Shown piece by piece: positions 39,777-58,106 of a DNA stretch of 64,000 bases. The translations under genes and the position numbers were made by a program. Positions within the stretch are counted from its first letter, which is position 1, and each line of letters begins with the position of its first letter. The notes under the pieces were generated by a model, which did no database searches, was not told the DNA's origin, and worked only from the letters and a program-made list of their open reading frames with translations. This DNA comes from Minisyncoccia bacterium (GTDB lineage Bacteria; Patescibacteriota; Minisyncoccia; UBA6257; GWB1-50-10): contig JBEKVQ010000001.1 in the NCBI GenBank assembly GCA_049997815.1, positions 20,642-84,641 of the forward strand, in the 5' to 3' direction.

Positions 39777-39795
39777 TCGTTTTTATTGCGGAGGG
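39777..39795. repeat. 19-bp direct repeat tgcggagggtagaggattc (island-distal att-like copy)
   Basis: Identical to 58088-58106, which is the 3' end of tRNA-Ser(CGA). Degenerate similarity to the tRNA continues for a few more bases. Confidence 0.6.
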
Positions 39796-39915
39796 TAGAG
39801 GATTCTCCCTCGCCTCTCGGCTTCGCCTCGGGCTGGGCACCGCCTCGCGTGCCTTCGGCACATGCTCCGGCGTTCTAATCATCACGCGAGCCGAGCAGTC
39901 GGCTCACTTACCCTC
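39777..39915 (-). other. GC-rich tRNA-Ser-like structured remnant at the island junction
   Basis: The ends (gcggagggtag ... ttaccctctcgca) mimic the acceptor arm of tRNA-Ser(CGA). The interior holds GNRA/UUCG-type hairpins (gtgccttcggcac; gagccgagcagtcggctc). A terminator-like hairpin gacgccg-ttta-cg-cggcgtc follows at 39931-39950. Confidence 0.3.
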
Positions 39916-40403
39916 TCGCAAAATTAAGACGCCGTTTACGCGGCGTCATTTTGCGGTGTGTCTCGGTTTAGGACCAAGACCGCTTGAATCAGTATAAGGC
40001 TTCTTTGGGGGTCGTTCAATTTCTGGGAATTGAGGCGTCAAGGTCTGGGGTTAAAACCAGACTCCGAACAGACGGAAAGATGACCAAACACCTAAGGAGA
40101 TAAGAGTGGCTGCAGTGAGGACATATGCAATCCCGAATTCAATTTTTGGATGGATATATATGCCCAATTTTTCACAAATAGCTCTAATCAACGCACGATA
40201 GGTCCAATGTGTGATGCTTCCGATCAAGCTGTTAATCAGAGAAAATATGTTTCTTGTTCGCCTCATTTGAGGAGAATATGACCAAATTAGGTCAGGGTCA
40301 AATGAGACAAATGGGACACCGAAAGGGTATTTCGCGCCCTATCTCATTTCGCTTGGTTGTATCCAAAAAGCCAAAAAATGCCAATTTTTTACGCCCCTCT
40401 ATA

Positions 40404-40880
40404 TTATATAATCCTGCACTCCATGAGGTGACGACAGAGCGCCTCCCGGCTCACAATATATTTTGTTGAGAGTTTATCGAGGTCGGGTTCTTTTTTATAA
40501 TCCGCCCGAAGGAACGCAAGCGGCATCAGGAGTTCGGCGGCGAATTGACTGGCTTCCGCTTCCGGATTGTCCTCGATATTTGGGCCACCGCAGGTGTGCC
40601 CCAGCATGAGGTGGCCGATCTCGTGCGCGATCGTGAATCGCCTCCTCACCCACGCCGTGTCGGGATTGAAGCCGATCGTCGGATAGCCATTAATCATCAC
40701 CAAAAGCCCGTCCACGGCCTTCAACGGAAAACGCAGCACTTCCAAATCGTGCCGCGCTTTCAAATACCGGATAATCTTCGGCAAGAAAATCGGGATTTCC
40801 CCGGCCCGGGCATCCTTGAGAAGCTTCCGGGCGATGTTCCGTATCACGCCTACGCTAGCCCTGACCTCTGTCCTTTCCAT
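40404..40880 (-). CDS. ImmA/IrrE-family zinc metallopeptidase (DUF955)
   Basis: HEIGHLMLGH HExxH motif. Immediately downstream of, and overlapping, an XRE HTH gene, the ImmR-ImmA arrangement of mobile elements. Confidence 0.7.
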   Translation of the reverse strand: MERTEVRASVGVIRNIARKLLKDARAGEIPIFLPKIIRYLKARHDLEVLRFPLKAVDGLLVMINGYPTIGFNPDTAWVRRRFTIAHEIGHLMLGHTCGGPNIEDNPEAEASQFAAELLMPLAFLRADYKKEPDLDKLSTKYIVSREALCRHLMECRII

Positions 40881-41208
40881 GGCGTTTTTCGGCGAGCTCG
40901 ATGAAATGGAGGACCGCCGCCTTATCCTCGTCGGTCAAATTCTTGCTCGCCCGGAGAGCCACTTTTAAATCCATCTTTTTACCCTCCTGACCGAGAAAAT
41001 ATCCGATGTTCTGGTGGAGAACCTCGGCTGCTTTCTGCAAATCTTCGGCCTTGAATCGGCGTTCTCCGGCCTCGATCAAGGACACGGCGGTCGCCGATTC
41101 ATATCCCAATTCCTTGGCGAATTGGGCTTGGGAAAGCCCGGCTTTCTCCCGAGCCTCCCGCAGGCGCTTGCCGATCTCGACGTTCAAGTCCTCACCTTTC
41201 ATAGGCAT
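40855..41208 (-). CDS. XRE-family HTH transcriptional regulator (ImmR-like)
   Basis: IGKRLREAREKAGLSQAQFAKELGYESATAVSLIEAGER is a canonical HTH_3. Confidence 0.75.
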   Translation of the reverse strand: MPMKGEDLNVEIGKRLREAREKAGLSQAQFAKELGYESATAVSLIEAGERRFKAEDLQKAAEVLHQNIGYFLGQEGKKMDLKVALRASKNLTDEDKAAVLHFIELAEKRHGKDRGQG

Positions 41209-41252
41209 GATTATATATTAGCACATTGATATGTTATCCCCATCAGATTGAT

Positions 41253-41305: not shown

Positions 41306-42586
41306 ATGTTGCCCAAAAACATTAAAATAGAGCAGGTGCCAGTGAAGGACCTAAAACCCGCCGCGTATAACCCGAGGAAATGGGATGAAAAGGCCCTCGC
41401 TGACATGAAAGAGAGCATTTCCCGCTTCGGCCTCTGCGACCCCCTGATCGTGAACGGGGCTCCGGCACGGAAGAACGTCGTGATCGGCGGCCATCTCCGG
41501 CTGAAGGTCGCGACGCTTCTAGGACACGCCGAGGTGCCCGTCGTCTATCTGAACATTCCGGAGATCGAGCGGGAGAAAGAGCTGAATCTGAGATTGAACA
41601 AAAATGTCGGCGCGTGGGACGAAGAACTCTTGAAGGCGTTTGACACGGATCTCCTCCTCGATGTTGGGTTCACGCCGGACGAACTGAATTCGTTCTTCGA
41701 CGACGTGCTTGAGATTTCTGACGATGGCTTTGATGTTGAAGAAGAGCTCGCAAAAATCACCAAGCCGGAGACGAAGCCCGGCGACTTGTACCAACTGGGC
41801 GGCCATCGCCTGCTCTGCGGCGATGCGCTCGACCCCGCGCAGGTCGCGAAGCTCATGGATACGGAACGCGCTCACATGATATTTTCCGATCCGCCGTACA
41901 ATATCGCCCTCGACTACAGGAAGGGCATCGGCACCAAAGGCAAATACACGACGGAGAAATTGGTCAACGATAGCAAGGGAACAAAAGAATATGAAACGTT
42001 TCTCGGGGACGCGCTCAGGAACGCACTCACCGCGAGCCGGCCCGACGCGCACATCTTCTTCTGGTGCGATGAAAAGTACGTGTGGCTGCTCCAGACGCTC
42101 TATGAGAAGTACGGCGTGGCGAACCGGCGGCTTTGCCTCTGGGTCAAAAACAACTTCGACCCCACGCCGCAGGTGGCGTTCAACAAAGTGATTGAACTGT
42201 GCGTATACGGCACGAAAGGCAGCCCCGCGCTCAATCCGAGCATCCGGAATCTTTCCGAGGTGCTGAACAAGGAAGCGAACTCCGTCGGCCTCTACGACGA
42301 CCTCATGTCAATCGTCCAGCTCTGGCTCGTGAAGCGGGACACGACGACCGACTACGAGCACCCCACCCAGAAGCCGATCACGCTCTGCGAAAAGCCAATC
42401 AAGCGGTGCAGTGCGCCGGGCGACATAATCCTCGACCTCTTCGGCGGGTCGGGCAGCACTCTGATCGCCGCAGAACAATTGAAGCGCCGGGCATTCCTCG
42501 TCGAGATCGACCCGACCTTCTGCGACCTCATCGTCCGCCGATGGGAGCATTCCACCGGAAGCCATGCCAAACTCATCAAAAAATAA
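41306..42586 (+). CDS. ParB-like nuclease domain fused to an N6-adenine/N4-cytosine DNA methyltransferase
   Basis: N-terminal ParB/Srx region (LKPAAYNPRKW...LIVN...GGHLRLKVA). MTase motif IV FSDPPYNI and motif I DLFGGSGSTLIAAEQ (beta-class order). Confidence 0.8.
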   Translation: MLPKNIKIEQVPVKDLKPAAYNPRKWDEKALADMKESISRFGLCDPLIVNGAPARKNVVIGGHLRLKVATLLGHAEVPVVYLNIPEIEREKELNLRLNKNVGAWDEELLKAFDTDLLLDVGFTPDELNSFFDDVLEISDDGFDVEEELAKITKPETKPGDLYQLGGHRLLCGDALDPAQVAKLMDTERAHMIFSDPPYNIALDYRKGIGTKGKYTTEKLVNDSKGTKEYETFLGDALRNALTASRPDAHIFFWCDEKYVWLLQTLYEKYGVANRRLCLWVKNNFDPTPQVAFNKVIELCVYGTKGSPALNPSIRNLSEVLNKEANSVGLYDDLMSIVQLWLVKRDTTTDYEHPTQKPITLCEKPIKRCSAPGDIILDLFGGSGSTLIAAEQLKRRAFLVEIDPTFCDLIVRRWEHSTGSHAKLIKK

Positions 42587-43328
42587 AATATGGAAACTGG
42601 GAAATCATCGGTTGCTCCTCGGAGATGCCGCAAAGCAAGAGGATATTGCCCGGGTTTTGGGTAAAGAAAAGGCATCTCTCTTGCTCACCGACCCGCCCTA
42701 CGGCGTGGGCTACGTCGAAGGCAAACAGGAATTTCTGGCGATCATCCACAAAGGAAGCGGCGGCGCAAAGTTTTCCGCCATTGCGGGCGATTCCCCCGAA
42801 GATGACTACTACAACTTTTCCCTCCGGTGGCTCGAGGCCGTGCGGCCGCACCTCGCGGAGAAAAACAGCTTCTATATCTTCAATGGCGACACGAAGCTGC
42901 GGGAACTTTTAAACGCCCTTTATGATGCCCGCTATGTAAAGTCCGCGCTGCTCATCTGGATCAAAAACCATCTCGTCATCGGCCGCAAGGATTACCATCC
43001 CCAGCACGAACTTATCGTCTACGGCTGGTACGGCAGGCATGCTTTCTTCGGACAAAAAGACAAAAGCGCCCTCTTTTATCCCAAGCCGCAAAAGAGCACG
43101 CTCCATCCCACCATGAAACCGCCCGCCCTCCTGCGGCGGCTCATCTACCATTCAAGCCAGCCGGGAGACGCGGTGCTCGATCCCTTCGGCGGGTCGGGTT
43201 CCACCCTGATCGCCTGCGAGCATCTCAGCCGAAGGTGCTTCATGATCGAGCGCGATGAGGGATATTGCCGGACCATCATCGACCGGTGGCAGAAGCTTAC
43301 CAAACAAAAGGCCAAATCACTCGCATGA
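42564..43328 (+). CDS. DNA methyltransferase (beta-class N6A/N4C), paralogue of the preceding MTase domain
   Basis: LGNHRLLLGDA (compare LGGHRLLCGDA in the previous gene), LTDPPYGVGY, DPFGGSGSTLIACE. Overlaps the upstream gene by 23 bp. Confidence 0.8.
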   Translation: MPNSSKNKIWKLGNHRLLLGDAAKQEDIARVLGKEKASLLLTDPPYGVGYVEGKQEFLAIIHKGSGGAKFSAIAGDSPEDDYYNFSLRWLEAVRPHLAEKNSFYIFNGDTKLRELLNALYDARYVKSALLIWIKNHLVIGRKDYHPQHELIVYGWYGRHAFFGQKDKSALFYPKPQKSTLHPTMKPPALLRRLIYHSSQPGDAVLDPFGGSGSTLIACEHLSRRCFMIERDEGYCRTIIDRWQKLTKQKAKSLA

Positions 43329-43717
43329 ACACGGATAGCGATGACAATACCAAAACGCCGAACGTCTACAAGAAGCGCGAATTCGAATCGTATGTCTTGT
43401 GGCGGTCGATGCCTTCGATCCTGCGCGGCCAGCCGCGGCACGTTATCGAAAGGCTGGGCATCGACGACGAGCTCGCCATATCGCTCCTCGATATCAAGAA
43501 CCAGACCGAATTCGCCCAGCGCTTCGGAATCAAGGACTTGGGGACCTTGACCGAGTGGAACAAGAAGATCGAGGAGGCGGGCGGCCTCATGAAGAGCATC
43601 CACCTCTGGGCGAAGCGGCTCACCCCGAATGTGGTCTCGGCCCTCTACCGCGAGGCCACGAAAACCGGGCGGGCAGCCGAAGTCAAAGCGTGGATGGAAA
43701 TAGTCGAAGGAATGTAA
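43325..43717 (+). CDS. hypothetical protein (130 aa)
   Basis: ATGA start/stop overlap with the MTase gene. Predicted helical. No motif recognised. Confidence 0.4.
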   Translation: MNTDSDDNTKTPNVYKKREFESYVLWRSMPSILRGQPRHVIERLGIDDELAISLLDIKNQTEFAQRFGIKDLGTLTEWNKKIEEAGGLMKSIHLWAKRLTPNVVSALYREATKTGRAAEVKAWMEIVEGM

Positions 43718-43725
43718 CCAACACC

Positions 43726-43938
43726 ATGGATCAAGCAAACAAAAACAAAGTGCTGACGATCGACGAGGCGGCGGCCATTCTTTCCGAGACGCTCGAAGAG
43801 GTGACTCAGCGGAAAACCTCCCTGCGCCGGGCGATGACGATCTCGCGCCTCGCGCTTGCGCTCGCGAAGGTCGCAGAGATCAAAGACCTCAAGGACCGGG
43901 TCGAGTTTCTTGAGCAGGCGTTAAAGAAAAGGAAATGA
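43726..43938 (+). CDS. hypothetical small coiled-coil protein (70 aa)
   Basis: Tightly packed in the operon. Heptad-like helical sequence. Confidence 0.35.
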   Translation: MDQANKNKVLTIDEAAAILSETLEEVTQRKTSLRRAMTISRLALALAKVAEIKDLKDRVEFLEQALKKRK

Positions 43939-43939
43939 C

Positions 43940-45787
43940 ATGAAAAACATTTTGAACATATTGAGCCGGGAGAACAATCTCACGCCGCGGGAAAAGTTTC
44001 TCCTCTTGGTCAAAAACGACACCCAAAAAGCCAAAACCGGCAAAGACATGCTGACCGAGGCCGACAAAGAAGCGCTCGAAAACTGGCATGCCAAGACGAG
44101 CGAGGAAGCCCGAGAATGGAACCAGTTAAACGAGGGCTGGAAATACGGCGGCCGCATGGACATCGAGGCCGAGTTTGCCTATAAAGACGCCCAGGTGGCC
44201 TACCTGTCTCAGCTGCCCATCATCGTCGACCTTTTATATTACCCGGGAGATCGGCGGATGGGCTCCTGCATCGATGGCCTCAAGCGCCTCAAAAAAGTGA
44301 CGATAGACGAGGCGGTCGCGATCGCCCAAAAGCAGAAAGCGGCAAAACTCAGCGAAGGCTTGGATTTTGAATATGCCGTCTATCAACTAGCCTTTGAACT
44401 TTTGAGCGATGATGACAAAAAAAGCATGAAAGCGCTTTACGAGGACGTAGAGTTCGATCATCAGTATCTCGATCAGGAGGAAATCATCGCCCACCTCTAC
44501 CACGGCCGAAAAACACTGAGCCGGGAAGCGAAGGAAAAACTGGCTGAGCTCGTAGCCGAGCAGAGTTACAACGGGTTTGCTAAGGAGTACCAGCTGTTCC
44601 ACTATTTCGCCTGCATTCCCGTCCTTGAGGTGGCGAGATACTATCTCAAGCACCACGGAATCGAAATTGCGGGCGCACCCATGCCAAAAAATCAAGAAGC
44701 GCAGGATGGGGATGAAGACACCCACAATGCGGTAATGAAAGCTATGCAAAAATACGCCGAGGAGCATGGCATCACCATCAAGGCCATGCTACGCGAAGCC
44801 TGCCTCCGGTGGATTGACGAAGACCTCCTTGAGGAATATCTGCCCCTTGCGGCAAGCAACAGCGCGGACCTTTTGGAGAGGTGGTTTGGGAGCAAGGGCG
44901 AGGCCCGGAAAATCTTGCTCAAGCACGTTCAATCGGGCGAACTCGCCTTTAGAGACCGGACGGATAAGGAAACTAGGAAGGAAAAATTGTATAGCAAGGG
45001 TCTTGGCGACCGCGAGGCTGAATCGGCCCGGATGGCTCTGGAGAACTTCAACCTCAAGCCCATCCTCAAGGGGGAGCTTGACGAGAAAGTCGCCTTTGAG
45101 ACATTCAGTGATAGAGTCATTACTGGTGAAAGCCTCTATGCGTTCACCGGAAATTATCGGTTTGTTAAGGAATTCAAAAAACGGGTCGATACCTACGATG
45201 CCAACCTGGGTCTCGTCTACGCCGAGAGCGACCCCGAACAAAAAGGCGAACACCTCGACCAGGAGCTTCTGATCTGCGACCTGACCGATAAAGGCGAGGC
45301 CGCCCCTTTCAGCTTCTACGGCATCAATATGACGCTGCTCTCGAGCATCTTCCGAGGACACTCCTTATTCGAAGAATTCCGGAAAAACGGCAAACTCTGG
45401 ATCAGATTCAAGAATGCGGAGATACAAAAGACGTTTATGGAACGGAGGCAAACGCTCATGGATGGGTACGCAAATCTGCTTGCGATCGAGGGTGTTTTCA
45501 AAAAACTCTCCCCGATGTACGAGATCGATATGGCCGAGCATGTCTCCGGCCGGCTCGCCACGGTACGGGAGTTCATCGAACAGTACAACCAGGCGGTGCG
45601 CACAGCGACGAACACCGACGACAAATCGCGGAAATCAAAAAACACTTTCCTTCAAGAGAAAGAGGAAATGCTGTTTGAAGACGACATAGTGATCGATATC
45701 GACGCTATAGAACCGAACCACGACATCGTGGGGGAACATGAAGCGAAACTGAGAGGGATTTTCCCCGTCTTCGGCGACGGTCGGTAA
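43940..45787 (+). CDS. hypothetical protein (615 aa), no recognisable domain
   Basis: Long uninterrupted ORF, translationally coupled to the preceding small genes. Acidic and helical-rich. Confidence 0.5.
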   Translation: MKNILNILSRENNLTPREKFLLLVKNDTQKAKTGKDMLTEADKEALENWHAKTSEEAREWNQLNEGWKYGGRMDIEAEFAYKDAQVAYLSQLPIIVDLLYYPGDRRMGSCIDGLKRLKKVTIDEAVAIAQKQKAAKLSEGLDFEYAVYQLAFELLSDDDKKSMKALYEDVEFDHQYLDQEEIIAHLYHGRKTLSREAKEKLAELVAEQSYNGFAKEYQLFHYFACIPVLEVARYYLKHHGIEIAGAPMPKNQEAQDGDEDTHNAVMKAMQKYAEEHGITIKAMLREACLRWIDEDLLEEYLPLAASNSADLLERWFGSKGEARKILLKHVQSGELAFRDRTDKETRKEKLYSKGLGDREAESARMALENFNLKPILKGELDEKVAFETFSDRVITGESLYAFTGNYRFVKEFKKRVDTYDANLGLVYAESDPEQKGEHLDQELLICDLTDKGEAAPFSFYGINMTLLSSIFRGHSLFEEFRKNGKLWIRFKNAEIQKTFMERRQTLMDGYANLLAIEGVFKKLSPMYEIDMAEHVSGRLATVREFIEQYNQAVRTATNTDDKSRKSKNTFLQEKEEMLFEDDIVIDIDAIEPNHDIVGEHEAKLRGIFPVFGDGR

Positions 45788-47275: not shown

Positions 47276-47327
47276 GGAGAATGCCCGCTATTTTAGCGGG
47301 TATTCCACCTTCATTGAGGAGTGACTT

Positions 47328-47452
47328 CGAGACGAAGCCGGAAGCCGAACCATAGTTGTCGTTAGCATTGCTGACCCAGTTCGTGTTGAACTTGACCTTG
47401 TCGTCGTTGAACTTGAAGTTCGGGGCGTTGTCGAAATCGCCATCGGCCTCAG
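47328..47452 (-). repeat. DGR template repeat (TR)
   Basis: 125 bp. On the minus strand it reads GAC AAC GCC CCG AAC TTC AAG TTC AAC ..., with 8 AAC codons. Matches the VR except at its adenines. Confidence 0.8.
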
Positions 47453-50378: not shown

Positions 50379-52121
50379 ATGAAAACCTATGAACACTTGA
50401 CTTTATATTTGCAGTCTGATAGACTTGAATTACAAGCTATGAGAAAGGATATACAAGCAAAACTTAATGGAATGCCGGAATTGCTCTCTATCAGCCAGGT
50501 AGCTGAGATTTTCAATATTCACCCCGACACCCTCCGAAACTGGGAGAAGGAAGGCATTTTAGTGCCTCTACGGGCCGGTAAGCGCGGAGACCGCAAATAC
50601 CGCCCCCAGGACATTCAAACCATTGTGGACAAAATGGGCAGTAAGCTCACCCTGCCACAACTTGAGCAGTTCCTTTGGAAAAGCGCCGATATTCTCCGCG
50701 GCAAGATCGACAGCTCCGATTACAAGAAATATATATTCGGACTCCTCTTTTACAAACGAATCAGTGACGTTTGGGACGAGGAATATAAGCGAGTGATGGA
50801 AGAATATAAAGATGAGACGGTCGCGCGAGCTGATTACAACCACCGTTTTCAAGTACCTCAGGATTGCCGGTGGTCAGTTATTGAGGAGCAGGCGGAAAAT
50901 ATCGGCCCCAAGCTTAATGGAATCTTTGATAAGCTCACGAACGCCAACAGCCCGAAGCTGGACAAAATTTTTGACGACCTCGATTTTGCACACAAAGATA
51001 AATTTCCGAATGAAACCACTCAGCGTTTAATAAATCACTTTTCGCAATACAACTTTAGCGATACGTATATCAACTCCGATCTTCTTGGGGACGCATACGA
51101 GTATCTCATTAAGCAGTTTGCGGCTGATGCCGGGAAGAAGGGTGGGGAATTTTATACCCCGCGAGAAGTTGAGCGCGTTATCATCCAAATTCTGAAGCCA
51201 CACAAGAAAGATCACATATATGATCCTACCGTTGGATCAGGCGGTTTTCTTCTTGAAGCGTATCACCACCTAAAGGAAACAGATGGCGAAAAAATTGCAC
51301 GGACACTTTATCTCTATGGGCAAGAAATAAACATCGGAACATTTGCGATCGCGAAGATTAATATGTTTCTCCACGGACTTGACGCTGCAGATGTCCAGCG
51401 CGGTGACACACTCGCGAATCCTCAATTCTTGAACCCGAACGGAACGCTAAAAACATTCGACATCTGCGTAGCAAATCCTCCCTACTCAATTAACGACTGG
51501 GAAAGCGAGCTGTTTAAAGAAAGATATGGCCGAATTGAAGGTTACGAAATACCGCCGAAGAGTAATGCGGACTATGCTTTCGTACTCCATATCATAAAGT
51601 CAATGAATTCAAATGGCCGCGCAGGTATCGTATTGCCTCACGGTGTTTTATTTCGCGGTGGTGCTGAAGGACGTATCCGTGAACAGATTCTCAAGAACGA
51701 CCTTATTGAGGCGGTGATTGCGCTCCCACCTAAGCTTTTTTATGGTACCGGCATACCGGCGGCGATTCTCATTTTCAACAGAAATAAGTCGGAGGACCAT
51801 AAAAATAAAGTCTTCATCATTGATGCCGAGAAGGACTTTTCCGAAGGCAAAAACCAGAACTCACTACGCGTGCAGGATATCCAAAAGATTGTGAGGGCAT
51901 ATGAAAACTACACAGACATTGAGGGCTATGCTCGAGTCGTTGGCCTTAAAGAGATTGAGGAGAACGAGTACAGCCTCGGTGCGCGCAGATATATTGAAAA
52001 CGACGACAAGGAAGAGACTATAGATGTTTCTGCCGTTCGAAAGGAACTCCTCGCGATTCAAAAGGAACGCGCGGATATAGATAAAAAGGTTGAGGGATTT
52101 CTCTCGGATCTTAAATATTGA
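50379..52121 (+). CDS. hsdM: Type I restriction-modification methyltransferase subunit HsdM with an N-terminal MerR/Xis-type HTH extension
   Basis: HsdM N-domain, FYTPREV, and VANPPYSI (motif IV NPPY). The first ~85 aa form a HTH_17-like domain (LLSISQVAEIFNIHPDTLRNWEKEGIL). Confidence 0.9.
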   Translation: MKTYEHLTLYLQSDRLELQAMRKDIQAKLNGMPELLSISQVAEIFNIHPDTLRNWEKEGILVPLRAGKRGDRKYRPQDIQTIVDKMGSKLTLPQLEQFLWKSADILRGKIDSSDYKKYIFGLLFYKRISDVWDEEYKRVMEEYKDETVARADYNHRFQVPQDCRWSVIEEQAENIGPKLNGIFDKLTNANSPKLDKIFDDLDFAHKDKFPNETTQRLINHFSQYNFSDTYINSDLLGDAYEYLIKQFAADAGKKGGEFYTPREVERVIIQILKPHKKDHIYDPTVGSGGFLLEAYHHLKETDGEKIARTLYLYGQEINIGTFAIAKINMFLHGLDAADVQRGDTLANPQFLNPNGTLKTFDICVANPPYSINDWESELFKERYGRIEGYEIPPKSNADYAFVLHIIKSMNSNGRAGIVLPHGVLFRGGAEGRIREQILKNDLIEAVIALPPKLFYGTGIPAAILIFNRNKSEDHKNKVFIIDAEKDFSEGKNQNSLRVQDIQKIVRAYENYTDIEGYARVVGLKEIEENEYSLGARRYIENDDKEETIDVSAVRKELLAIQKERADIDKKVEGFLSDLKY

Positions 52122-52122
52122 T

Positions 52123-53412
52123 ATGAAAACGGCACAGACGACAATTCCGAATGGGTGGCAACAAGCAAAGCTTGGTGACATTGCTAAGTTACGTAAGGGA
52201 TTAACTTACAAAAGTTCACACTATTCAAATAAGCAGGATGGTTTAATTTTTCTTACTCTCAAGTCCATCCTAAGAGGGGGTGGTTTTAATACCGATGGGA
52301 TAAAGTTCTATTCTGGAGATTATGATCCTTCTGCTGTTGTAAATGAAGATGATTTGGTGATCGCAAATACTGATATAACACGGGATGCTGAAGTTGTTGG
52401 AGCACCGATGCTGCTCCCGGGTTTTCCAAAGAAACCCGTCTTAATCTCAATGGATCTTTCTGTTTTAGATATCAACGAAAGAGGTGCAAATAAACACTTT
52501 ATATATTATCTTTTACAAGCTCCAATGGCCCGTAATTTTATGAGAGACCACTCAAATGGCTCTACCGTCCTCCATCTCAAGACCAAAGACGTTCCTAGAT
52601 TCAGTTTTTTAATGCCAACTATTACGGAACAGAAAAAGATTGCGGAGATTTTGGGGACAGTAGATGCAGAAATTAAAAAAACCGACGAGATTATTATTGC
52701 TACAGAGAAGCTCAAAAATGGGCTAGTACGACAGTTGTTTACCCGAGGTATTGGACACACAAAATTTAAGAAAACTAAATTCGGTGATATTCCGGCAGAA
52801 TGGACTACAGAAAGTTTCAAAGATTCGTCAATTGAAATTATTGATGGCGACCGCGGAGTTAATTATCCAAAGCAAACCGACTTCTCTGATGACGGCTACT
52901 GCTTGTTTTTGAATAATAAAAATATAAAGAACGATGCTTTTCTTTTTGAAGATTGCAGCTTTATCACAAAAGAAAAAGATGGGACCTTGCGCAAGGGAAA
53001 GCTGAAGCGCTTTGATGTTGTGCTTACCACAAGAGGAACTGTAGGAAATATTGCGTTTTATGACAGTACCGTCCCATTTGAAAACATTCGAATAAACTCC
53101 GGAATGTTGATCCTCCGCGTTTCGAGAGGTTATGAGCCAGAGTTCCTGTACCGACTAATGAGAAATGAGTATATGAAAAGGAAATATACCGAAACGGCTT
53201 CAGGGTCTGCTCAACCGCAGCTACCCATTCGTAGTCTGGAAAATATTCTTATAGTTAAGCCAGATATTTCCGAACAAAAAGAAATAGTCGCAATCGCAAA
53301 ATCGGTTGACGAAAAAATTTCTGTGAACAAAAAATTGAGAGAGAAGCTCATTCTTCTCAAAAAGGGACTTATGCAAGATCTTTTGAGCGGCAAGGTAAGA
53401 GTAGTTACATAA
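52123..53412 (+). CDS. hsdS: Type I RM specificity subunit HsdS
   Basis: Two target-recognition domains separated by the conserved central region (LVRQLFTRGIGHTKFKKTKFGDIP) and the C-terminal conserved helix (LKKGLMQDLLSGKVRV). Start taken 1 nt after the hsdM stop. Confidence 0.8.
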   Translation: MKTAQTTIPNGWQQAKLGDIAKLRKGLTYKSSHYSNKQDGLIFLTLKSILRGGGFNTDGIKFYSGDYDPSAVVNEDDLVIANTDITRDAEVVGAPMLLPGFPKKPVLISMDLSVLDINERGANKHFIYYLLQAPMARNFMRDHSNGSTVLHLKTKDVPRFSFLMPTITEQKKIAEILGTVDAEIKKTDEIIIATEKLKNGLVRQLFTRGIGHTKFKKTKFGDIPAEWTTESFKDSSIEIIDGDRGVNYPKQTDFSDDGYCLFLNNKNIKNDAFLFEDCSFITKEKDGTLRKGKLKRFDVVLTTRGTVGNIAFYDSTVPFENIRINSGMLILRVSRGYEPEFLYRLMRNEYMKRKYTETASGSAQPQLPIRSLENILIVKPDISEQKEIVAIAKSVDEKISVNKKLREKLILLKKGLMQDLLSGKVRVVT

Positions 53413-53418
53413 ATTATT

Positions 53419-54507
53419 ATGCGATTCATAGACATATTTAAAACTGATGCAGCATCTATTCTCCAGAATCGAAAGAATGGGGTTATTTATACTGCGGACT
53501 TTGGAAGTGGCGAAGGGAAATATATTAGTTCCGCATTTGATAGTACTGATCCCGTTGATTTGAGTATTCAGATTTCTCCAAAAGTCGAAGTGAGAATCGC
53601 ATATATTTTTAACGGTGAACAAATCAGTGGGTTACAGATATCGAAAGTTAATAATAAGGGTGAGCTGGAAAAGATTCATCTTTCGACCTTGGATTGGGAG
53701 GGAGTGCTTGGTTTACTCCAGATATTCTCGGAGATGGATATTAAGGCATTAGCGCGCAAAAATTTGATTTTGAATGAAAAAATTACAGAGAATCCTCAGG
53801 AGTTGGAAGCATTCTTAAAAACTATTAGCACTGATCCGGAGGGAAAAGAGAAAATGACGGAAATCGTGAAAAACTTTGGTCTTATTAAGCGTGGCGATAT
53901 TGATGAAATCGCTGAACGTAGAGAGTCATCAGCTCTATTTGATAGATTACTCAATAATTCCACCGAGTTTGCTGCAAAGAAAACAGAATGGGGTGTCGGT
54001 AAAAATGAAGAGGTTTGGCAAAGATTTTTTAAAGAAAATGTATGGATTCTTGGTGCAGAGTTTATTGAGATTCTTAATGAACGGGTGCTCGATACAGAAA
54101 ACATAACAGACTATATTGTGAAATCGTATGACGGTTTTGCGGATATTATTGAATTAAAACTTCCGAGTGTACAATTTTGGAACGCAGATCTAACACCAAA
54201 TAGTGACTTAGCAAAAGCACTCATGCAGTGTATGCGTTATATTTCGGCAATTGAAAGAAGGATCAACGACCTTGAGCTTAATAAAAAACTTGGTCGAACA
54301 GCTATTGTGAAACCTAGAATCACATTGATTTTTGGCCGGTCGAATAATTGGACAGATGAACAGAGGGAAACATACAGAATTTTAAATGCCAATTTTCATT
54401 CCATAAGTATTTTGACTTACGATCATGTTTTTGAGAGGGCAAAAAGGATGACTGCTAATAATATGCGTGACGTTGATGATATAAAACCGGAAGTTATCAC
54501 ATTTTAA
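53419..54507 (+). CDS. uncharacterised protein with a PD-(D/E)xK nuclease-like motif (possibly DUF4263/Shedu-like), embedded in the Type I RM operon
   Basis: ITDYIVKSYDGFADIIELKLP gives a D...ExK arrangement, followed by QCMRY. Sits between hsdS and hsdR with 6-bp and 3-bp gaps. Confidence 0.45.
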   Translation: MRFIDIFKTDAASILQNRKNGVIYTADFGSGEGKYISSAFDSTDPVDLSIQISPKVEVRIAYIFNGEQISGLQISKVNNKGELEKIHLSTLDWEGVLGLLQIFSEMDIKALARKNLILNEKITENPQELEAFLKTISTDPEGKEKMTEIVKNFGLIKRGDIDEIAERRESSALFDRLLNNSTEFAAKKTEWGVGKNEEVWQRFFKENVWILGAEFIEILNERVLDTENITDYIVKSYDGFADIIELKLPSVQFWNADLTPNSDLAKALMQCMRYISAIERRINDLELNKKLGRTAIVKPRITLIFGRSNNWTDEQRETYRILNANFHSISILTYDHVFERAKRMTANNMRDVDDIKPEVITF

Positions 54508-54510
54508 TTT

Positions 54511-57423
54511 ATGAAATTCAACGAACAACATACAATTGAAAATCACATCATCAAGTTTCTCAAGGAGGAACTTGGTTATGAATATATAAAACCGCAAGAG
54601 TTTGCGAAGCTGCGCGAATTTGAGAACGAATACATTATCGCCCCGCTCCTTACTGTGGCAATAAAGAAAATCAACGAGATTACTGATGAGACAGAAGCTC
54701 AAGTAGTAGTGCGTGAGGTTAAAAAGCTTGATTCAAACGAGGCATTCTTAAATGTTCTCCGAAACGGCCTCAACTTAAAAGATCCCGAAACCGGTAAGAT
54801 GCGTGATTATTTTATCGTTGATTTTGATAGGCCGGAAAACAATCATTTTGTTGTCACAAATCAATTTTATTTTGAAGGTAACTCCGAAAATATTCGCCCA
54901 GACGTGATGGTATTTCTAAACGGTCTGCCGGTGGTTGATATTGAGGCTAAGAGCCCAACTGCCTCAAGCAGTATTGATTACTCCAATGCCGTAGGTCAGA
55001 TAAAACGATACGAACGCAATGCCTTTAAACTTTTCTGGCCTAACTGTTTCAATATCGCCTCCGACGGCCTGAAGACCGTGTATGGCGCCACCTATGCTTC
55101 GGCAGAGTATTTCCTACAATGGCGCGAGGAGGAACTGGCGAAGAAATATGGTGAGGAGCTCGAAGTGACGCTTGCCGCACTTATCTCACGCGATCGCCTG
55201 CTTGATATCATCGGAAACTTTATTCTCTTTGAGAAAGAGCAAGAAGGAACCATAAAAAAGATCACCCGCTACATGCAGTATCGGGCCACCAATAAGATCG
55301 TTGAGCGTGTTCAAAGTGGAAAAACAAAGCGCGGCCTCGTTTGGCATACACAAGGGTCTGGAAAATCCTTCACTATGTTTTTTACCGCATGGAAGTTGCG
55401 TTTCGACAAGAAACTAAAAAACCCAAAGGTCTTCGTTTTGGTTGACCGGATTGATCTTGATGATCAGCTCTACAACACGTTTCTTAATTGTGGCGGGCAA
55501 AATGTGATCCGGGTAGAATCCCGTCGCGATCTTGAACGAAAAATCCAATCTCCAGAACGTGGCATTTTTATCTCTACAATTCAGAAATTCTCCGAGCTGG
55601 GCGATGAGGTAAAAAATCTCGACGAGAACATTATTGTTCTTTCTGACGAAGCGCACCGGGATAACGAGGGCATCTCCGCAATCAATTTGCGAAGCGCTAT
55701 GACGAACGCTTTTTTCTTCGGTTTTACTGGCACCCCGATTGATCGACTAACTCTCAATACCCACAGAAATTTCGGCGAGGAGGGAGAACGCTATCTTGAT
55801 TACTACTCTATTCAGCAAGCCGTTGATGATGGAGCGACGCTGCCGGTTACCTATGAAGCGCGGCTTTCTAAATTCTTCATTAACGAAGAGGAGCTTGATA
55901 AGCAATTCGACGAGCTCACAGTGGATCTGAACGAAAAAGAGAAGGACCAGATTTCAAAGAAATATGGTAAAAAGGAAGCAATCGTAAAGCTCGATAGGCG
56001 TATGGAGGCAATCGCCCGGGATATCGTTGAGCACTTCAAACTCTATGTTGAGCCAGCTGGGTTCAAGGCACAGATTGTTTGTTATGACCGCGAGACTACG
56101 GCCAAGTATAAAAAACTACTTGATCAACTTGTACCAAAAAACTGGTCTGAAGTTGTTTACTCTCCCGGAGATGCCAATACCGATTCAGAAGAGTTGCGGA
56201 CATATAACACGACGAAGGCAAAACGGGAGAAGATCATCAACGAGTTCAAAGATCCGAACAGTTCTCTGAAGTTCTTGCTCGTTTGCGATATGCTCTTGAC
56301 CGGCTTTGACGCGCCTGTTGAGCAAGTTATGTATCTTGATAAGCCACTATGGGATCACAATCTCCTGCAAGCAATCGCGCGGACGAACCGTATTTATCCA
56401 AATAAGGGGGCCGGAAAGGTTATTGATTACTATGGCATCACACGAAGTCTCTACAAATCGTTGAACTTCGACGAGAGTATTGTTGATTCCGCGATGATTA
56501 ATATTGACAAGCTCAAAGAGGAATTCGAGGAGGTTTTGGACGAATTGAAAAATCTCTTTGTCGGTATTAACACCGAAGACCCTTCTATCGAAAATCTCCG
56601 CCGGTGCTTAAAGATTTTTGCGGACAATATAGAAAAACAGAAGTTCTATCAGGAGAAGTACGCTCGTCTGAAGCTTCTTTTTGAAGTTCTGTCCCCGGAC
56701 CCATTTCTAAAAAAACATATTCGTATCTTCGAATGGTTTACAAGCGTATTCATCGCTTTTGAAAAAGAGTATGGTATGAAAGTATCCGATACGGAGCTTC
56801 TTGCAAAATACGGCGAGAAAGTGAAACAGCTCATCCAACAGCGAGTTGACTATGAGGGCATCACCAAGAATTTCCGCGAGCTTAATGTAAATGATCTTTA
56901 TGTAATGGAGCGGCTTAATAAGATGGATGACGAAGAAAAAGCGCTCAATCTTGAAAAGATGCTTAAGCAGGAAATTTCTATCAATGTTGATACGAATCCG
57001 GCATACAAGAAATTCAGCGAGCGGCTCTTGGCAATACGAAAAGAATTTGAGCAGCACCAAATTGATCTTGCGGAGCGAATTAAACGCTACCAAGAGCTTT
57101 TGTCGGATATAAAGAAAAAAGGAGACGAGGCAAAAGAGCTTGGCTTCACACTCAAGGAGTATGGTTTATTCGTTATCTCGGAAGAATTCATCGTTGATAG
57201 TGACAAAGCCACGGTGCATGAATTTATTAAGGAAATGACGAACCGGCTGGAAGAGGTGCTTGATGAAGGGTGGCAAGAATCCTCTAAGCGGGAAGAGTTT
57301 TTGAAGGAGGCCAAGAGGATCATTCAGGAGCTTGTGCTCAAGGAGTACAAGGGAAAGATAAGGGTCAACGACTTCCATAAGTATTTGAATCGGCTCATCG
57401 ACATCGTAATTAAGAAATTCTGA
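54511..57423 (+). CDS. hsdR: Type I RM restriction subunit HsdR (helicase/endonuclease)
   Basis: N-terminal nuclease region (VDIEAK), helicase motif I HTQGSGKS, DEAH box VLSDEAHRD, motif VI. 970 aa. Confidence 0.9.
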   Translation: MKFNEQHTIENHIIKFLKEELGYEYIKPQEFAKLREFENEYIIAPLLTVAIKKINEITDETEAQVVVREVKKLDSNEAFLNVLRNGLNLKDPETGKMRDYFIVDFDRPENNHFVVTNQFYFEGNSENIRPDVMVFLNGLPVVDIEAKSPTASSSIDYSNAVGQIKRYERNAFKLFWPNCFNIASDGLKTVYGATYASAEYFLQWREEELAKKYGEELEVTLAALISRDRLLDIIGNFILFEKEQEGTIKKITRYMQYRATNKIVERVQSGKTKRGLVWHTQGSGKSFTMFFTAWKLRFDKKLKNPKVFVLVDRIDLDDQLYNTFLNCGGQNVIRVESRRDLERKIQSPERGIFISTIQKFSELGDEVKNLDENIIVLSDEAHRDNEGISAINLRSAMTNAFFFGFTGTPIDRLTLNTHRNFGEEGERYLDYYSIQQAVDDGATLPVTYEARLSKFFINEEELDKQFDELTVDLNEKEKDQISKKYGKKEAIVKLDRRMEAIARDIVEHFKLYVEPAGFKAQIVCYDRETTAKYKKLLDQLVPKNWSEVVYSPGDANTDSEELRTYNTTKAKREKIINEFKDPNSSLKFLLVCDMLLTGFDAPVEQVMYLDKPLWDHNLLQAIARTNRIYPNKGAGKVIDYYGITRSLYKSLNFDESIVDSAMINIDKLKEEFEEVLDELKNLFVGINTEDPSIENLRRCLKIFADNIEKQKFYQEKYARLKLLFEVLSPDPFLKKHIRIFEWFTSVFIAFEKEYGMKVSDTELLAKYGEKVKQLIQQRVDYEGITKNFRELNVNDLYVMERLNKMDDEEKALNLEKMLKQEISINVDTNPAYKKFSERLLAIRKEFEQHQIDLAERIKRYQELLSDIKKKGDEAKELGFTLKEYGLFVISEEFIVDSDKATVHEFIKEMTNRLEEVLDEGWQESSKREEFLKEAKRIIQELVLKEYKGKIRVNDFHKYLNRLIDIVIKKF

Positions 57424-57424
57424 T

Positions 57425-57994
57425 ATGGAAAAGCAGATCACATTACAAAACAAAAAAGTCACTTACACTCTCCGAAAAAGCACACGGGCAAGAAGGATGC
57501 GCCTTGCTGTATATTGTGATGGGTCTGTCGTGGTGACGACGCCGCACGATTTACAAGAAACCACCGCCGAGAAGTTCATAAAGGAAAAGACGACTTGGTT
57601 ATTTTCAAAACTTGCATTCTTTAGGCAATTCAAAGGAAGATCGATTGCGCGACATAGCCATCAGGATTACTTAAATCGTAAAGAGGAAGCACTTGCTATT
57701 GTTCAGCAAAAAGTTGAAATCCTCGCGAAACGATACGGATTCCGATTCAATAGGATCAACATCAAAAATCAAAGGACCCGCTGGGGGAGCTGCTCGAAAA
57801 AGGGCAATCTGAATTTCAATTACAAGGTGATGTTTTTACCGGCAAATGCCCAAGAATACATTATTGCTCATGAACTTTGTCACCTGAAGGAATTCAACCA
57901 TTCGAAAAGGTTCTGGGGGCTGGTTTCAAAAATAGTATCGAATTACTCGAAAATTAAAAGTGAATTAAAAAAGAGTGGTTTATCTTTTTACTAA
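57425..57994 (+). CDS. DUF45/M48-family (YgjP-like) zinc metallohydrolase
   Basis: HELCHLKEFNHSKRFW HExxH motif. 2-bp gap after hsdR. This family frequently accompanies Type I RM operons. Confidence 0.7.
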   Translation: MEKQITLQNKKVTYTLRKSTRARRMRLAVYCDGSVVVTTPHDLQETTAEKFIKEKTTWLFSKLAFFRQFKGRSIARHSHQDYLNRKEEALAIVQQKVEILAKRYGFRFNRINIKNQRTRWGSCSKKGNLNFNYKVMFLPANAQEYIIAHELCHLKEFNHSKRFWGLVSKIVSNYSKIKSELKKSGLSFY

Positions 57995-58087
57995 AATAAA
58001 ATCACCCATACTGGGTGATTTTATTCAAGTAACTCGGTCGCACTAGTGCCTCGGCTGAGGCCATCGGTACGATAACAACGCCTTGTC

Positions 58088-58106
58088 TGCGGAGGGTAGA
58101 GGATTC
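58088..58106. repeat. 19-bp direct repeat tgcggagggtagaggattc (tRNA-proximal att-like copy)
   Basis: Forms the 3' end (T-loop to discriminator) of tRNA-Ser(CGA). Identical to 39777-39795. Confidence 0.6.

What the first reader, a model, noticed from the sequence alone, without database searches (positions are those of the whole stretch)
39777..58106. 18.3-kb island bounded by a 19-bp direct repeat that is the 3' end of tRNA-Ser(CGA), with no tyrosine integrase visible
- tgcggagggtagaggattc occurs at 39777-39795 and at 58088-58106.
- The right-hand copy is the T-loop-to-discriminator segment of an intact tRNA-Ser(CGA) whose 3' end faces the island. This is the classic signature of site-specific integration into a tRNA gene.
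- Weaker similarity to the tRNA continues a few bases beyond the left copy, consistent with an old, partly decayed att site.
- Everything between the repeats is accessory: ImmR/ImmA switch, ParB-MTase fusion, orphan MTase, unknown genes, DGR, large serine recombinase, Type I RM with an embedded gene, and a DUF45 hydrolase.
- The only recombinase seen is a serine recombinase, which normally does not leave ~19-bp tRNA-derived repeats. Either the original tyrosine integrase has been lost or the element is composite.
Basis: partly seen in the sequence, partly recalled or inferred. Interest (0 to 1): 0.75.

Follow-up and report, generated by a model that had tools for sequence, protein, structure and literature searches.

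The report
Serine-recombinase defence island at tRNA-Ser
The island is real, but the 19-bp repeat was already in the chromosome before it arrived; the island's own large serine recombinase inserted it at a 5-bp site at the very end of a serine tRNA gene, a target normally used only by the other (tyrosine) integrase family.

Summary
The 19-mer TGCGGAGGGTAGAGGATTC occurs exactly twice, at 39787-39805 (not 39777-39795) and at 58088-58106, which is the 3' end of tRNA-Ser(CGA).

It is not the island's att site. Island-free contigs of the same population still carry both copies, 146 bp apart.

The true junctions are a 5-bp core, TGCGG, at 39952-39956 and 58088-58092. This core flanks 18,131 bp of inserted DNA (39957-58087).

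A sister element has a 92%-identical backbone, the same ends, a 90%-identical recombinase and different cargo. In another contig of the same population it sits at the other serine tRNA, tRNA-Ser(TGA), at the same CCGCA core. The island is therefore one mobile unit, and the 448-aa large serine recombinase (48995-50341) is the likely integrase. No tyrosine integrase is needed, and there is no room for one.

Of 44 homologous recombinase loci in Patescibacteria (CPR) genomes, 24 have an antisense tRNA-Ser just downstream and 5 have another tRNA there. Between the recombinase gene and the tRNA lies a slot of 0.1-9 kb that holds defence systems.

Serine integrases are hardly known to use tRNA genes, so I rate this a new variant of a known kind. 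Recombinase activity is inferred, not shown.

The parts
39787..39805 (-). Older relic: a 19-nt copy of the tRNA-Ser(CGA) 3' end. It is host DNA and not part of the island.
   Evidence: Exact repeat. Present in all island-free contigs. A tRNA-Ser 3' fragment sits at the orthologous position in a sister species.
39806..39951 (-). 146-bp host spacer between the relic and the native tRNA end. It contains the native tRNA-Arg/Ser terminator hairpin at 39947-39928.
   Evidence: Identical in empty-site contigs. Terminator-like site. Folds strongly, z = -5.3.
39952..39956 (.). attL core TGCGG (CCGCA in tRNA sense).
   Evidence: Empty-site alignment A1. 5-bp overlap in the blastn map. Coordinates asserted.
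39957..40056 (.). Distal (P) arm of the element.
   Evidence: 93.6% identical to the distal end of the sister element, and the last 47 nt are identical.
40057..40360 (-). Small variable slot holding orf71 (40051-40266). The sister element has a 301-aa gene here.
   Evidence: No homology between the two elements in this stretch.
40404..40880 (-). ImmA-like Peptidase_M78.
   Evidence: Pfam 1.3e-16.
40855..41208 (-). ImmR-like HTH_3 repressor.
   Evidence: Pfam 1.3e-12.
41306..42586 (+). ParB_N-N6_N4 DNA methyltransferase fusion.
   Evidence: Pfam. phrog_498, 7e-106. Co-occurs with the recombinase in 16 of the 44 related genome loci.
42564..43328 (+). Second N6/N4 DNA methyltransferase.
   Evidence: Pfam 5.7e-31.
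43325..45787 (+). Three CPR-specific backbone genes of unknown function: p130 (43325-43717), p70 (43726-43938) and p615 (43940-45787).
45841..46905 (-). DGR reverse transcriptase.
   Evidence: RVT_1 2.2e-24.
46925..47275 (+). DGR accessory protein bAvd.
   Evidence: PF22296 8.2e-16.
47324..47452 (-). DGR template repeat (TR).
   Evidence: Repeat family D1. All mismatches to the VR fall at TR adenines.
47841..48755 (-). DGR target gene (304 aa) with the variable repeat (VR) at its 3' end, 47843-47971.
   Evidence: The VR differs between the window and the sister element.
48995..50341 (+). Large serine recombinase (448 aa), the inferred integrase.
   Evidence: Resolvase + Recombinase + Zn_ribbon_recom. 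phrog_95 integrase, 4.9e-65. Aligns to SPbeta SprA/YokA over residues 27-365. 90% identical to the sister element's recombinase.
50379..57994 (+). Defence cargo slot: MerR-fused HsdM, HsdS, Shedu SduA (53419-54507), HsdR and YgjP/DUF45.
   Evidence: Pfam and PADLOC. The stretch 50266-58034 has no homology to the sister element, which carries Dcm+Vsr+PDC-M33 instead.
58035..58087 (.). tRNA-proximal (P') arm of the element, carrying the TATCG..ACC motif.
   Evidence: 82% identical to the sister element. TATCG lies within about 25 nt of the tRNA end in 17 of the 31 junctions listed.
58088..58092 (.). attR core TGCGG: the last two acceptor-stem base pairs, the discriminator and 2 trailer nucleotides.
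58090..58176 (-). tRNA-Ser(CGA), intact. This is the integration target (B arm).
   Evidence: ARAGORN and Rfam.
58490..58578 (+). tRNA-Ser(TGA) with its CCGCA core at 58574-58578. This alternative attB is empty in the window and occupied in the sister contig and in L063.

Best explanation
The window carries an integrative element of about 18.1 kb (39957-58087) in a Patescibacteria (Minisyncoccia) chromosome. I infer that the element's own large serine recombinase (LSR) inserted it.

Proposed mechanism (inferred):
- The LSR recombined an attP site, ...GAGACACA-CCGCA-GACAAGGCG..., with an attB site formed by the last bases of tRNA-Ser(CGA) and its trailer.
- The crossover lay inside a 5-bp common core, CCGCA. 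That core covers the last two acceptor-stem pairs, the discriminator and two trailer bases.
- Because the core and everything on the tRNA side are unchanged, the tRNA stays intact. It only loses its native terminator, which now lies 18 kb away.

The same element family also uses tRNA-Ser(TGA), 400 bp away, which ends in the same CTCCGCA.

Layout of the element:
- A conserved backbone: ImmR/ImmA switch, ParB-MTase, MTase, three CPR-specific unknown genes, a DGR and the LSR.
- Two variable slots. The large one lies between the LSR gene and the tRNA-proximal att arm and carries anti-phage defence systems. Here these are a Type I RM system with an embedded Shedu gene.

The 19-bp repeat that drew attention is an older relic of the host locus. 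It is a displaced tRNA-Ser 3' fragment left by an earlier, unrelated event.

What is shown and what is inferred:
- Shown: the junctions, the empty and occupied sites, the second target, the domain content, and the family-wide linkage to tRNA genes.
- Inferred: that the LSR catalyses the reaction, where the crossover lies within the core, the regulatory role of ImmR/ImmA, and the route of transfer between cells.
For: 1. Empty site. L002/L012 (JGI 3300038425) has the cupredoxin gene, relic 19-mer, 146-bp spacer, tRNA cluster and sigma-70 gene contiguous. Alignment to both window junctions shows identity up to ...CATTT-TGCGG on the left and from TGCGG-AGGG... on the right, so only 5 bp are shared. 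L007-L009, the sister contig and L014 also show the uninterrupted spacer-tRNA arrangement.
2. Sister element. In ERZ27250144 k141_98660 the host flanks are 99.9-100% identical to the window. The CGA site is empty, with a 5-bp overlap. An 18.4-kb element sits at tRNA-Ser(TGA). Its backbone is 92% identical over 9.9 kb, its distal end 93.6% identical and its proximal end 82% identical to the window element. It has the same CCGCA core but unrelated cargo. A second sample, L063, shows the same TGA-site junction.
3. The LSR has the Resolvase, Recombinase and Zn-ribbon domains. It has the RKS motif with the catalytic Ser and the DRLSR motif. It aligns to the SPbeta integrase over residues 27-365.
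4. Family-level linkage. Of 44 LSR-homologue loci in genome contigs, nearly all titled as Patescibacteria or uncultured MAGs, 24 have a tRNA-Ser and 5 have a tRNA-Gln, -Leu or -Trp as the first downstream tRNA. In every case the tRNA is antisense to the LSR with its 3' end facing it, 78 bp to 9 kb away. Apart from L062, whose LSR match is cut at the contig end, no locus has a tRNA upstream of the LSR. The DNA next to the tRNA end carries conserved arm motifs: TATCG..GAC(C) in 17 junctions and GTTCT...GACCC in the ~50%-identity subgroup.
5. No tyrosine integrase. All ORFs of at least 70 aa are accounted for. None has a Phage_integrase hit, and the only large unknown protein, p615, gives only helical-bundle fold matches.
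6. The cargo slot holds defence genes in 8 of the 9 elements examined: Type I, II and III RM, Shedu, Dsr1 and PDC-M33.
Against: - No excised circle was found. The reconstructed attP junction has no exact match in metagenome contigs or viral contigs.
- attP shows only weak dyad symmetry, 10 of 26 positions.
- No recombination directionality factor was identified.
- The LSR gene lies 7.7 kb from the nearest att arm, which is unusual for serine-integrase elements. In relatives the gap shrinks to 78-314 bp.
- The downstream halves of the two attB sites share only AAAT, so how the enzyme accepts both sites is unexplained.
- All evidence is comparative. No activity was measured.
Confidence: 0.85

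Rival explanations
1. One reading: the 19-bp direct repeats are attL and attR of an 18.3-kb island that a tyrosine integrase inserted and that later lost the integrase gene.
For: The 19-mer is an exact copy of the tRNA 3' end and lies left of the island. This is the classic tyrosine-integrase signature. Serine integrases rarely use tRNA genes (PMC7192596).
Against: Both 19-mers are present in every island-free contig, 146 bp apart. The island starts 165 bp to the right of the left copy. The sister element sits at tRNA-Ser(TGA), where no 19-mer repeat flanks it and only CCGCA is duplicated.
Confidence: 0.02
2. Composite island: two independent insertions side by side, a DGR/MTase element and a separate LSR + RM/Shedu element, each with its own history of integration.
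For: The recombinase sits in the middle of the island. GC content drops from about 0.50-0.57 in the backbone to about 0.37-0.46 in the cargo. The cargo is unrelated between sister elements. L051 shows that tandem accretion does occur at tRNA-Ser.
Against: Backbone, LSR and both terminal arms are found together at another tRNA in the sister contig. Homology is continuous from 40361 to 50265, across the supposed seam. There is no internal att-like CCGCA junction with arm motifs. The cargo has been exchanged inside one mobile unit and was not integrated separately by site-specific recombination at the tRNA.
Confidence: 0.08
3. The serine recombinase is a DNA invertase for phase variation of the adjacent Type I RM system (an hsdS inverton) and not an integrase. 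Something else moved the island.
For: The LSR gene lies directly upstream of hsdM. A 15-nt perfect inverted repeat links the LSR 3' end (50292-50306) and hsdS (52901-52915) (I23). Recombinase-driven hsdS invertons are known (PMC7672463).
Against: The protein is a 448-aa large serine recombinase with Recombinase and Zn-ribbon domains, not a small invertase. Its 90%-identical sister sits next to a Dcm/Vsr cargo with no hsdS. The window has only one hsdS. One 15-nt inverted repeat in 24 kb is close to chance by my estimate (about 0.3 expected). Homologues track tRNA genes, not RM systems.
Confidence: 0.03
4. About the relic only: the 19-mer plus the 146-bp spacer is a functional structured RNA (a tRNA-like minihelix or terminator module) kept by selection, not a decayed att scar.
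For: The 170-nt stretch folds at -80.4 kcal/mol, z = -5.3. A 5' GAGGGUA pairs with the 3' UACCCUC of the 19-mer. The stretch is invariant in all contigs of the population.
Against: No Rfam or ARAGORN hit. The body does not align to a tRNA. The sister species L064 has a different arrangement at the same place, with only a 17-nt tRNA 3' fragment, so there is no conserved structure to test. Invariance within one population is uninformative.
Confidence: 0.15

Closest known systems
Serine-integrase (large serine recombinase) integrative elements, e.g. SPbeta SprA, TP901-1, A118, Bxb1, phiC31
   Same: Same three-domain recombinase. A short common core flanked by otherwise unrelated att arms. From my own knowledge, cores of 2 to about 16 bp are typical; here the core is 5 bp. 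One recombinase gene per element. Occupied and empty sites occur in related genomes.
   Different: At most about 30% identical to any phage integrase in GenBank phages. The target is the 3' end of a tRNA gene, which Mageeney et al. 2020 say had not been reported for serine integrases (14/297 candidate cases; PMC7192596). The target gene is not disrupted. The integrase gene can lie up to 9 kb from its att arm. No phage structural genes are present.
Classical tRNA-integrating genomic islands and prophages with tyrosine integrases (P4-like, Islander-type)
   Same: Insertion at the 3' end of a tRNA gene with the tRNA kept intact. The integration module lies on the tRNA-proximal side. Variable cargo. 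Relic tRNA 3' fragments occur at the locus.
   Different: No tyrosine recombinase. Only 5 bp are duplicated, against tens of bp of tRNA sequence. The crossover lies at the discriminator/trailer and not in the anticodon or T loop.
SCCmec (CcrAB serine recombinases integrating at the 3' end of rlmH/orfX); comparison from my own knowledge
   Same: A large serine recombinase inserts a non-phage cargo island at the extreme 3' end of a conserved housekeeping gene without inactivating it. Cargo is highly variable and tandem or composite arrays occur.
   Different: Different host phylum and target (a protein gene versus a tRNA). A single recombinase here, not a CcrA/B pair. The cargo is defence systems plus a DGR, not resistance genes.
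Defence-gene hotspots of P2/P4-like and other integrative elements; comparison from my own knowledge
   Same: A fixed slot next to the integration module holds different anti-phage systems in otherwise near-identical elements.
   Different: The chassis is an LSR element in CPR bacteria with no recognisable phage or satellite genes.
ICEBs1-type ImmR/ImmA regulation
   Same: An adjacent HTH repressor and M78 anti-repressor protease pair at the element end, divergent from the rest of the element.
   Different: No conjugation genes. The role in excision is inferred only.

Membership tests
tRNA-integrating island made by a tyrosine integrase | A tyrosine recombinase (Phage_integrase) gene in the island | tested here: not met
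   No Phage_integrase hit in any island ORF. The p615 model shows no recombinase fold. No unassigned coding space of 250 aa or more remains.
tRNA-integrating island made by a tyrosine integrase | The direct repeat of the tRNA 3' segment is created by the insertion, so the empty site has a single copy | tested here: not met
   Both 19-mers are present in the empty sites.
tRNA-integrating island made by a tyrosine integrase | Insertion at the tRNA 3' end with the tRNA left intact | tested here: met
Large serine recombinase integrative element | Resolvase catalytic domain with the catalytic Ser, plus Recombinase domain and zinc ribbon | tested here: met
   Pfam 1.2e-19, 9.7e-15 and 1.4e-9. The YARKST and DRLSR motifs are visible.
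Large serine recombinase integrative element | attL and attR share only a short core, and empty and occupied alleles differ by exactly element plus core | tested here: met
   5-bp TGCGG core.
Large serine recombinase integrative element | The same recombinase lineage is repeatedly linked to the same kind of target and to conserved att arms | tested here: met
   29 of 44 loci have an antisense tRNA downstream, 24 of them tRNA-Ser, with conserved arm motifs next to the tRNA end.
Large serine recombinase integrative element | Imperfect dyad symmetry of attP and attB around a central dinucleotide | tested here: inconclusive
   Best dyad score is 10 of 26 for attP. The P and B arms are 12/30 identical.
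Large serine recombinase integrative element | Catalysed attP x attB recombination, an excised circle, and a directionality factor | not testable with these tools
   The attP junction is absent from assembled contigs. No reads were available and no RDF was recognised.
Diversity-generating retroelement | RT, accessory protein, and a TR/VR pair whose differences fall at TR adenines, with the VR at the 3' end of a target gene | tested here: met
   The VR differs between sister elements.
Prophage or phage satellite | Capsid, terminase, portal, tail or primase genes, or relatives in viral collections | tested here: not met
   PHROGs match only the MTase, ImmA and the integrase. p615 and the LSR are absent from IMG/VR, and p615 is absent from GenBank phages.
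ICE / IME | Relaxase, coupling protein or type IV secretion genes | tested here: not met
   No such Pfam domains in any island ORF. An oriT cannot be excluded.
Defence island / cargo hotspot | Known defence systems that vary between otherwise homologous elements at one position | tested here: met
   Type I RM + SduA in the window versus Dcm/Vsr + PDC-M33 in the sister element. Type II RM, Type III RM, Dsr1 and PDC-M33 in relatives.

The most novel reading that the evidence does not exclude
A clade of large serine recombinases widespread in Patescibacteria (CPR) has taken over the tRNA 3'-end niche that is otherwise almost exclusive to tyrosine integrases.

- It recognises the conserved T-arm and acceptor end of tRNA-Ser, with switches to tRNA-Gln, -Leu and -Trp. 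It recombines at the discriminator/trailer, so the tRNA is untouched.
- It serves as the chassis of a modular shuttle that moves defence systems, and in one sublineage a DGR, between these small-genome bacteria.
- This would be the first well-supported natural case of serine-integrase use of tRNA genes. The support is empty and occupied alleles plus two alternative tRNA targets within one population.
Probability: 0.55. Interest if true: 0.65.

Novelty: new variant of a known kind. Interest (0 to 1): 0.55.

Why it matters
- It removes an apparent paradox (a tRNA island with no tyrosine integrase). It also shows that a tRNA-derived direct repeat next to an island can be a pre-existing relic and not the att site, which is a trap for island-finding software.
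- It gives strong comparative evidence that serine integrases can specialise on tRNA 3' ends. Mageeney et al. (2020) flagged this as unreported and in need of proof.
- tRNA-Ser 3' ends are highly conserved. Such recombinases would therefore have ready-made landing sites in many genomes, including CPR bacteria, for which I know of few genetic tools.
- It identifies a vehicle for defence-system and DGR exchange in Patescibacteria.

Tried and rejected
- Exact search for the reconstructed attP junction (an excised circle) in metagenome contigs and viral contigs found nothing.
- Search for the distal arm in metagenome contigs gave only one more integrated copy, L063.
- Rfam at E <= 1 over 36000-60000 found only the five tRNAs, and nothing in the relic or spacer.
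- The viral-origin test failed for the p615 family and the LSR in IMG/VR, and for p615 in GenBank phages.
- The first look-up of the sigma-70 protein failed because the ORF start was wrong. It was repeated with the called start.
- The first dyad-symmetry script used an attP reconstruction that was one base short, so its result is discarded. The corrected run shows only weak symmetry.
- I first placed the left core at 39953-39957. Re-reading the ruler and an assertion put it at 39952-39956.
- Alignment of the relic region to the tRNA body shows no homology beyond the 3' ~19-24 nt.
- Search for the spacer in viral contigs found nothing.
- One literature query was rejected for syntax. Searches for CPR + serine recombinase + tRNA, and for CPR + DGR + integrase + tRNA, found no report of this system.
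Full report
**1. The observation**

- TGCGGAGGGTAGAGGATTC occurs exactly twice in the window, at 39787-39805 and 58088-58106. No further copy appears even with three mismatches. Chance expectation is 0.03.
- The right copy is the 3' end of an intact tRNA-Ser(CGA) on the minus strand. ARAGORN places it at 58089-58176 and Rfam at 58090-58176. It is the first gene of a five-tRNA cluster: Ser-CGA, Arg-CCT, Val-GAC, Ala-GGC, Ser-TGA.
- Pfam and PADLOC confirm the listed gene content: ImmA/HTH, ParB-MTase, MTase, RT, bAvd, large serine recombinase, Type I RM with an embedded Shedu SduA gene, and YgjP.
- TR (47324-47452) and VR (47843-47971) differ only at TR adenines in the coding sense, so this is a canonical DGR.

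**2. The empty site overturns the att interpretation**

- I looked up contigs that encode exactly the cupredoxin-like protein flanking the island on the left (38918-39400). This returned several assemblies of the same population.
- In L002 (JGI 3300038425, a 396-kb contig) the cupredoxin gene is followed directly by the tRNA cluster and the sigma-70 gene.
- Both 19-mers are still there, 165 bp apart start to start (19-mer, 146-bp spacer, tRNA).
- L007, L008, L009 and the sister contig show the same arrangement. L014 begins inside the spacer and carries it at the distance from the sigma-70 gene expected for an empty locus.
- Alignment of the empty site to the two window junctions gives:
  - left: identity up to ...GCGGCGTCATTT-TGCGG, then divergence;
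  - right: identity from TGCGG-AGGGTAGAGG onwards.
- The insertion is therefore 39957-58087 (18,131 bp), flanked by a 5-bp duplication TGCGG at 39952-39956 and 58088-58092.
- In tRNA sense the core is CCGCA: the last two acceptor-stem pairs, the discriminator G and two trailer nucleotides. The tRNA is untouched.
- The native terminator hairpin (39947-39928, minus strand) is now 18 kb from the tRNA.

**3. A sister element at the other serine tRNA**

- In contig ERZ27250144 k141_98660 (L003 + L013) the host flanks are 99.9-100% identical to the window and the CGA site is empty.
- An 18.4-kb element lies between tRNA-Ser(TGA) and the sigma-70 gene.
- The blastn map shows:
  - backbone: window 40361-50265 is 92% identical over 9.9 kb, in inverted orientation, as expected because the two Ser tRNAs face each other;
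  - distal end: 93.6% identical, with the last 47 nt identical (GAAGCCTTATACTGATTCAAGCGGTCTTGGTCCTAAACCGAGACACA|CCGCA);
  - tRNA-proximal end: 82% identical;
  - two non-homologous slots: 40057-40360 (orf71 versus a 301-aa gene) and 50266-58034 (the cargo).
- The two recombinases are 90% identical.
- The junction again lies right after CCGCA at the tRNA end, and CCGCA is the only duplication.
- A second sample (L063, Ga0187878) shows the same TGA-site junction.
- Both arms, the backbone and the recombinase therefore travel together. The island is one mobile unit and not two adjacent insertions.
- The two attB sites share 20 of 30 nt on the tRNA side and only AAAT downstream.

**4. The recombinase**

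- The 448-aa protein has Resolvase, Recombinase and Zn_ribbon_recom domains.
- It matches the PHROG integrase family phrog_95 at 4.9e-65.
- It aligns over residues 27-365 to the solved SPbeta integrase SprA/YokA.
- It has the YARKST and DRLSR motifs.
- It is at most about 30% identical to any serine integrase in GenBank phages.
- A 5-bp common core fits serine integrases. From my own knowledge, their cores range from 2 to about 16 bp.
- No tyrosine recombinase exists in the island. All coding space is assigned and no ORF has a Phage_integrase hit.

**5. Family-level evidence**

- A scan of one genome per GTDB species found 44 loci that encode relatives of the recombinase (35-90% identity). They are almost all in Patescibacteria/CPR MAGs. 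NCBI labels the window's own p615 protein 'Minisyncoccia bacterium'.
- In 24 loci the first downstream tRNA is a tRNA-Ser, and in 5 it is tRNA-Gln, -Leu or -Trp. In every case the tRNA is antisense to the recombinase gene with its 3' end facing it, 78 bp to 9 kb away.
- Apart from L062, whose recombinase match is cut at the contig end, no locus has a tRNA upstream of the recombinase.
- The DNA next to the tRNA end carries conserved motifs:
  - TATCG followed within 3-9 nt by GAC(C) or ACC, in 17 of the 31 junctions listed, including the window and its sister element;
  - GTTCT...GACCC in the ~50%-identity subgroup.
- This is what a conserved attP half-site would look like.
- Most of the remaining loci are short or truncated contigs.

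**6. Cargo and backbone**

The slot between the recombinase gene and the proximal arm holds defence genes in 8 of the 9 elements examined:

| Element | Cargo in the slot |
|---|---|
| window | Type I RM + Shedu |
| sister element | Dcm + Vsr + PDC-M33 A/B/C |
| L019 | Type II RM + a HEPN protein |
| L020, L031 | Type III RM |
| L027 | Dsr1 |
| L054 | PDC-M33 |
| L030 | unknown |

- The ParB-MTase accompanies the recombinase in 16 of the 44 genome loci.
- The p130/p70/p615/DGR block is shared with L039, whose recombinase is 68% identical and which also sits at a tRNA-Ser(CGA).
- No capsid, terminase, relaxase or T4SS gene was recognised. p615 and the LSR have no relatives in IMG/VR, and p615 has none in GenBank phages.
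- The way the element moves between cells is unknown.

**7. What the 19-mer is**

- It is host DNA that predates the island. It is identical in every contig of the population whichever site is occupied.
- In a sister species (L064, cupredoxin protein 74% identical) the locus has the same synteny. A 17-nt tRNA-Ser 3' fragment (ATCCTTCCGCCTCCGCA) sits at the orthologous position, followed by GTAAAAAC (window: ATAAAAAC). There the neighbouring tRNA-Ser has been replaced, and the two Ser tRNAs are swapped relative to the window.
- The most economical reading is a displaced tRNA 3' end left by an older integration of a different element, one that carried at least 19 bp of tRNA sequence, followed by decay to 146 bp. 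This is inference.
- The spacer plus relic folds unusually well (z = -5.3). It can form an acceptor-like helix, but it does not align to a tRNA body and matches no Rfam family. That remains unexplained.
- L051 shows that tandem accretion with a 17-nt tRNA repeat occurs at other tRNA-Ser genes that carry these elements.

**8. Comparison with what is known**

- Mageeney et al. 2020 (PMC7192596) found t(m)RNA targets for 44.5% of tyrosine-integrase elements but only 14 of 297 (4.9%) serine-integrase elements. [quoted passage not shown]
- The large LSR survey of Durrant et al. (PMC10083194) does not mention tRNA.
- The streptococcal ICE survey links tRNA sites to tyrosine integrases only.
- Searches combining CPR/Patescibacteria/Saccharibacteria, serine recombinase, DGR and tRNA found no description of this system. 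The library is incomplete, so this is not proof of novelty.

**9. Verdict**

- The finding is real as an island and as a repeat, but the link between the two is wrong.
- The 'missing tyrosine integrase' is explained by an ordinary serine-integrase mechanism at an unusual target.
- What remains of interest is the target itself (tRNA 3' ends), its conservation across a CPR-wide recombinase clade, and the modular defence/DGR cargo.
- I rate it a new variant of a known kind, interest 0.55.
- Recombinase activity, the crossover position, regulation by ImmR/ImmA and the transfer route are all inferred.

Noticed in passing
window 39787-39956 (minus strand): The relic 19-mer plus the 146-bp spacer folds at -80.4 kcal/mol (z = -5.3). 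A 5' GAGGGUA pairs with the 3' UACCCUC and a short T-arm-like hairpin forms, giving a tRNA-like minihelix. ARAGORN and Rfam do not call it.
   Followed up: partly
L064 2860-3660 (ENA ERZ27245774 k141_49223, sister species): The sigma70 - tRNA cluster - cupredoxin synteny is the same, but the two tRNA-Ser genes are swapped relative to the window. The cupredoxin-side gene is a different tRNA-Ser(tga), flanked by a 5' fragment (GGGGAGGCGTGCGCGAGT) and a 3' fragment (ATCCTTCCGCCTCCGCA) of the window-type tRNA-Ser(TGA). This suggests tRNA gene replacement at this hot spot.
   Followed up: partly
L051 11300-16870 (CALFEO010000013.1): Tandem arrangement. The LSR element's proximal arm abuts a 17-nt copy of the tRNA-Ser(gga) 3' end. 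A 4.3-kb unit without an LSR (M23 peptidase and unknown genes) follows, with its own homologous proximal arm next to the real tRNA.
   Followed up: partly
window 33525-36920 (+): A 1131-aa leucyl-tRNA-synthetase-like protein has Ser_hydrolase/Abhydrolase_6 and NUDIX domain hits inserted between the tRNA-synt_1 segments (precomputed Pfam list).
   Followed up: no
window 50379-52121 and 53419-54507: HsdM carries an N-terminal MerR-type HTH domain (residues 35-82). A Shedu SduA gene sits between hsdS and hsdR inside the Type I RM operon.
   Followed up: no
window 50292-50306 / 52901-52915: A perfect 15-nt inverted repeat joins the 3' end of the recombinase gene and the middle of hsdS. It is probably chance (about 0.3 expected in 24 kb by my estimate), but it is the geometry of an hsdS inverton.
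   Followed up: partly
window 47843-47971 vs sister contig 18136-18264: The sister element's VR is 88% identical to the window TR, while the window's VR is about 78% identical to either TR. The two elements therefore carry differently diversified targets, which fits recent DGR activity.
   Followed up: partly
L004, L005, L006 (Logan contigs), first bases: Three independent Logan contigs end at the same base inside the 146-bp spacer (GAGCATGTGCC...). L014, from the same run as L006, starts in the spacer. This may reflect a polymorphism or a repeat-induced assembly break in the spacer.
   Followed up: no
L040-L045, L052, L057, L062: MAGs titled 'uncultured Pseudomonadales' or 'Gammaproteobacteria' (TPA assemblies) carry LSR relatives of 39-59% identity. 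L042-L045 and L057 have a tRNA-Ser downstream, with the GTTCT...GACCC arm type. Either the clade extends beyond CPR or these bins are mislabelled.
   Followed up: no
window 57988-58032: A 21-nt inverted repeat (90% complementary, 3-nt loop) lies at the island's right end, just after the YgjP gene. It could replace the displaced native terminator of the tRNA operon, but the terminator scan did not call it.
   Followed up: partly
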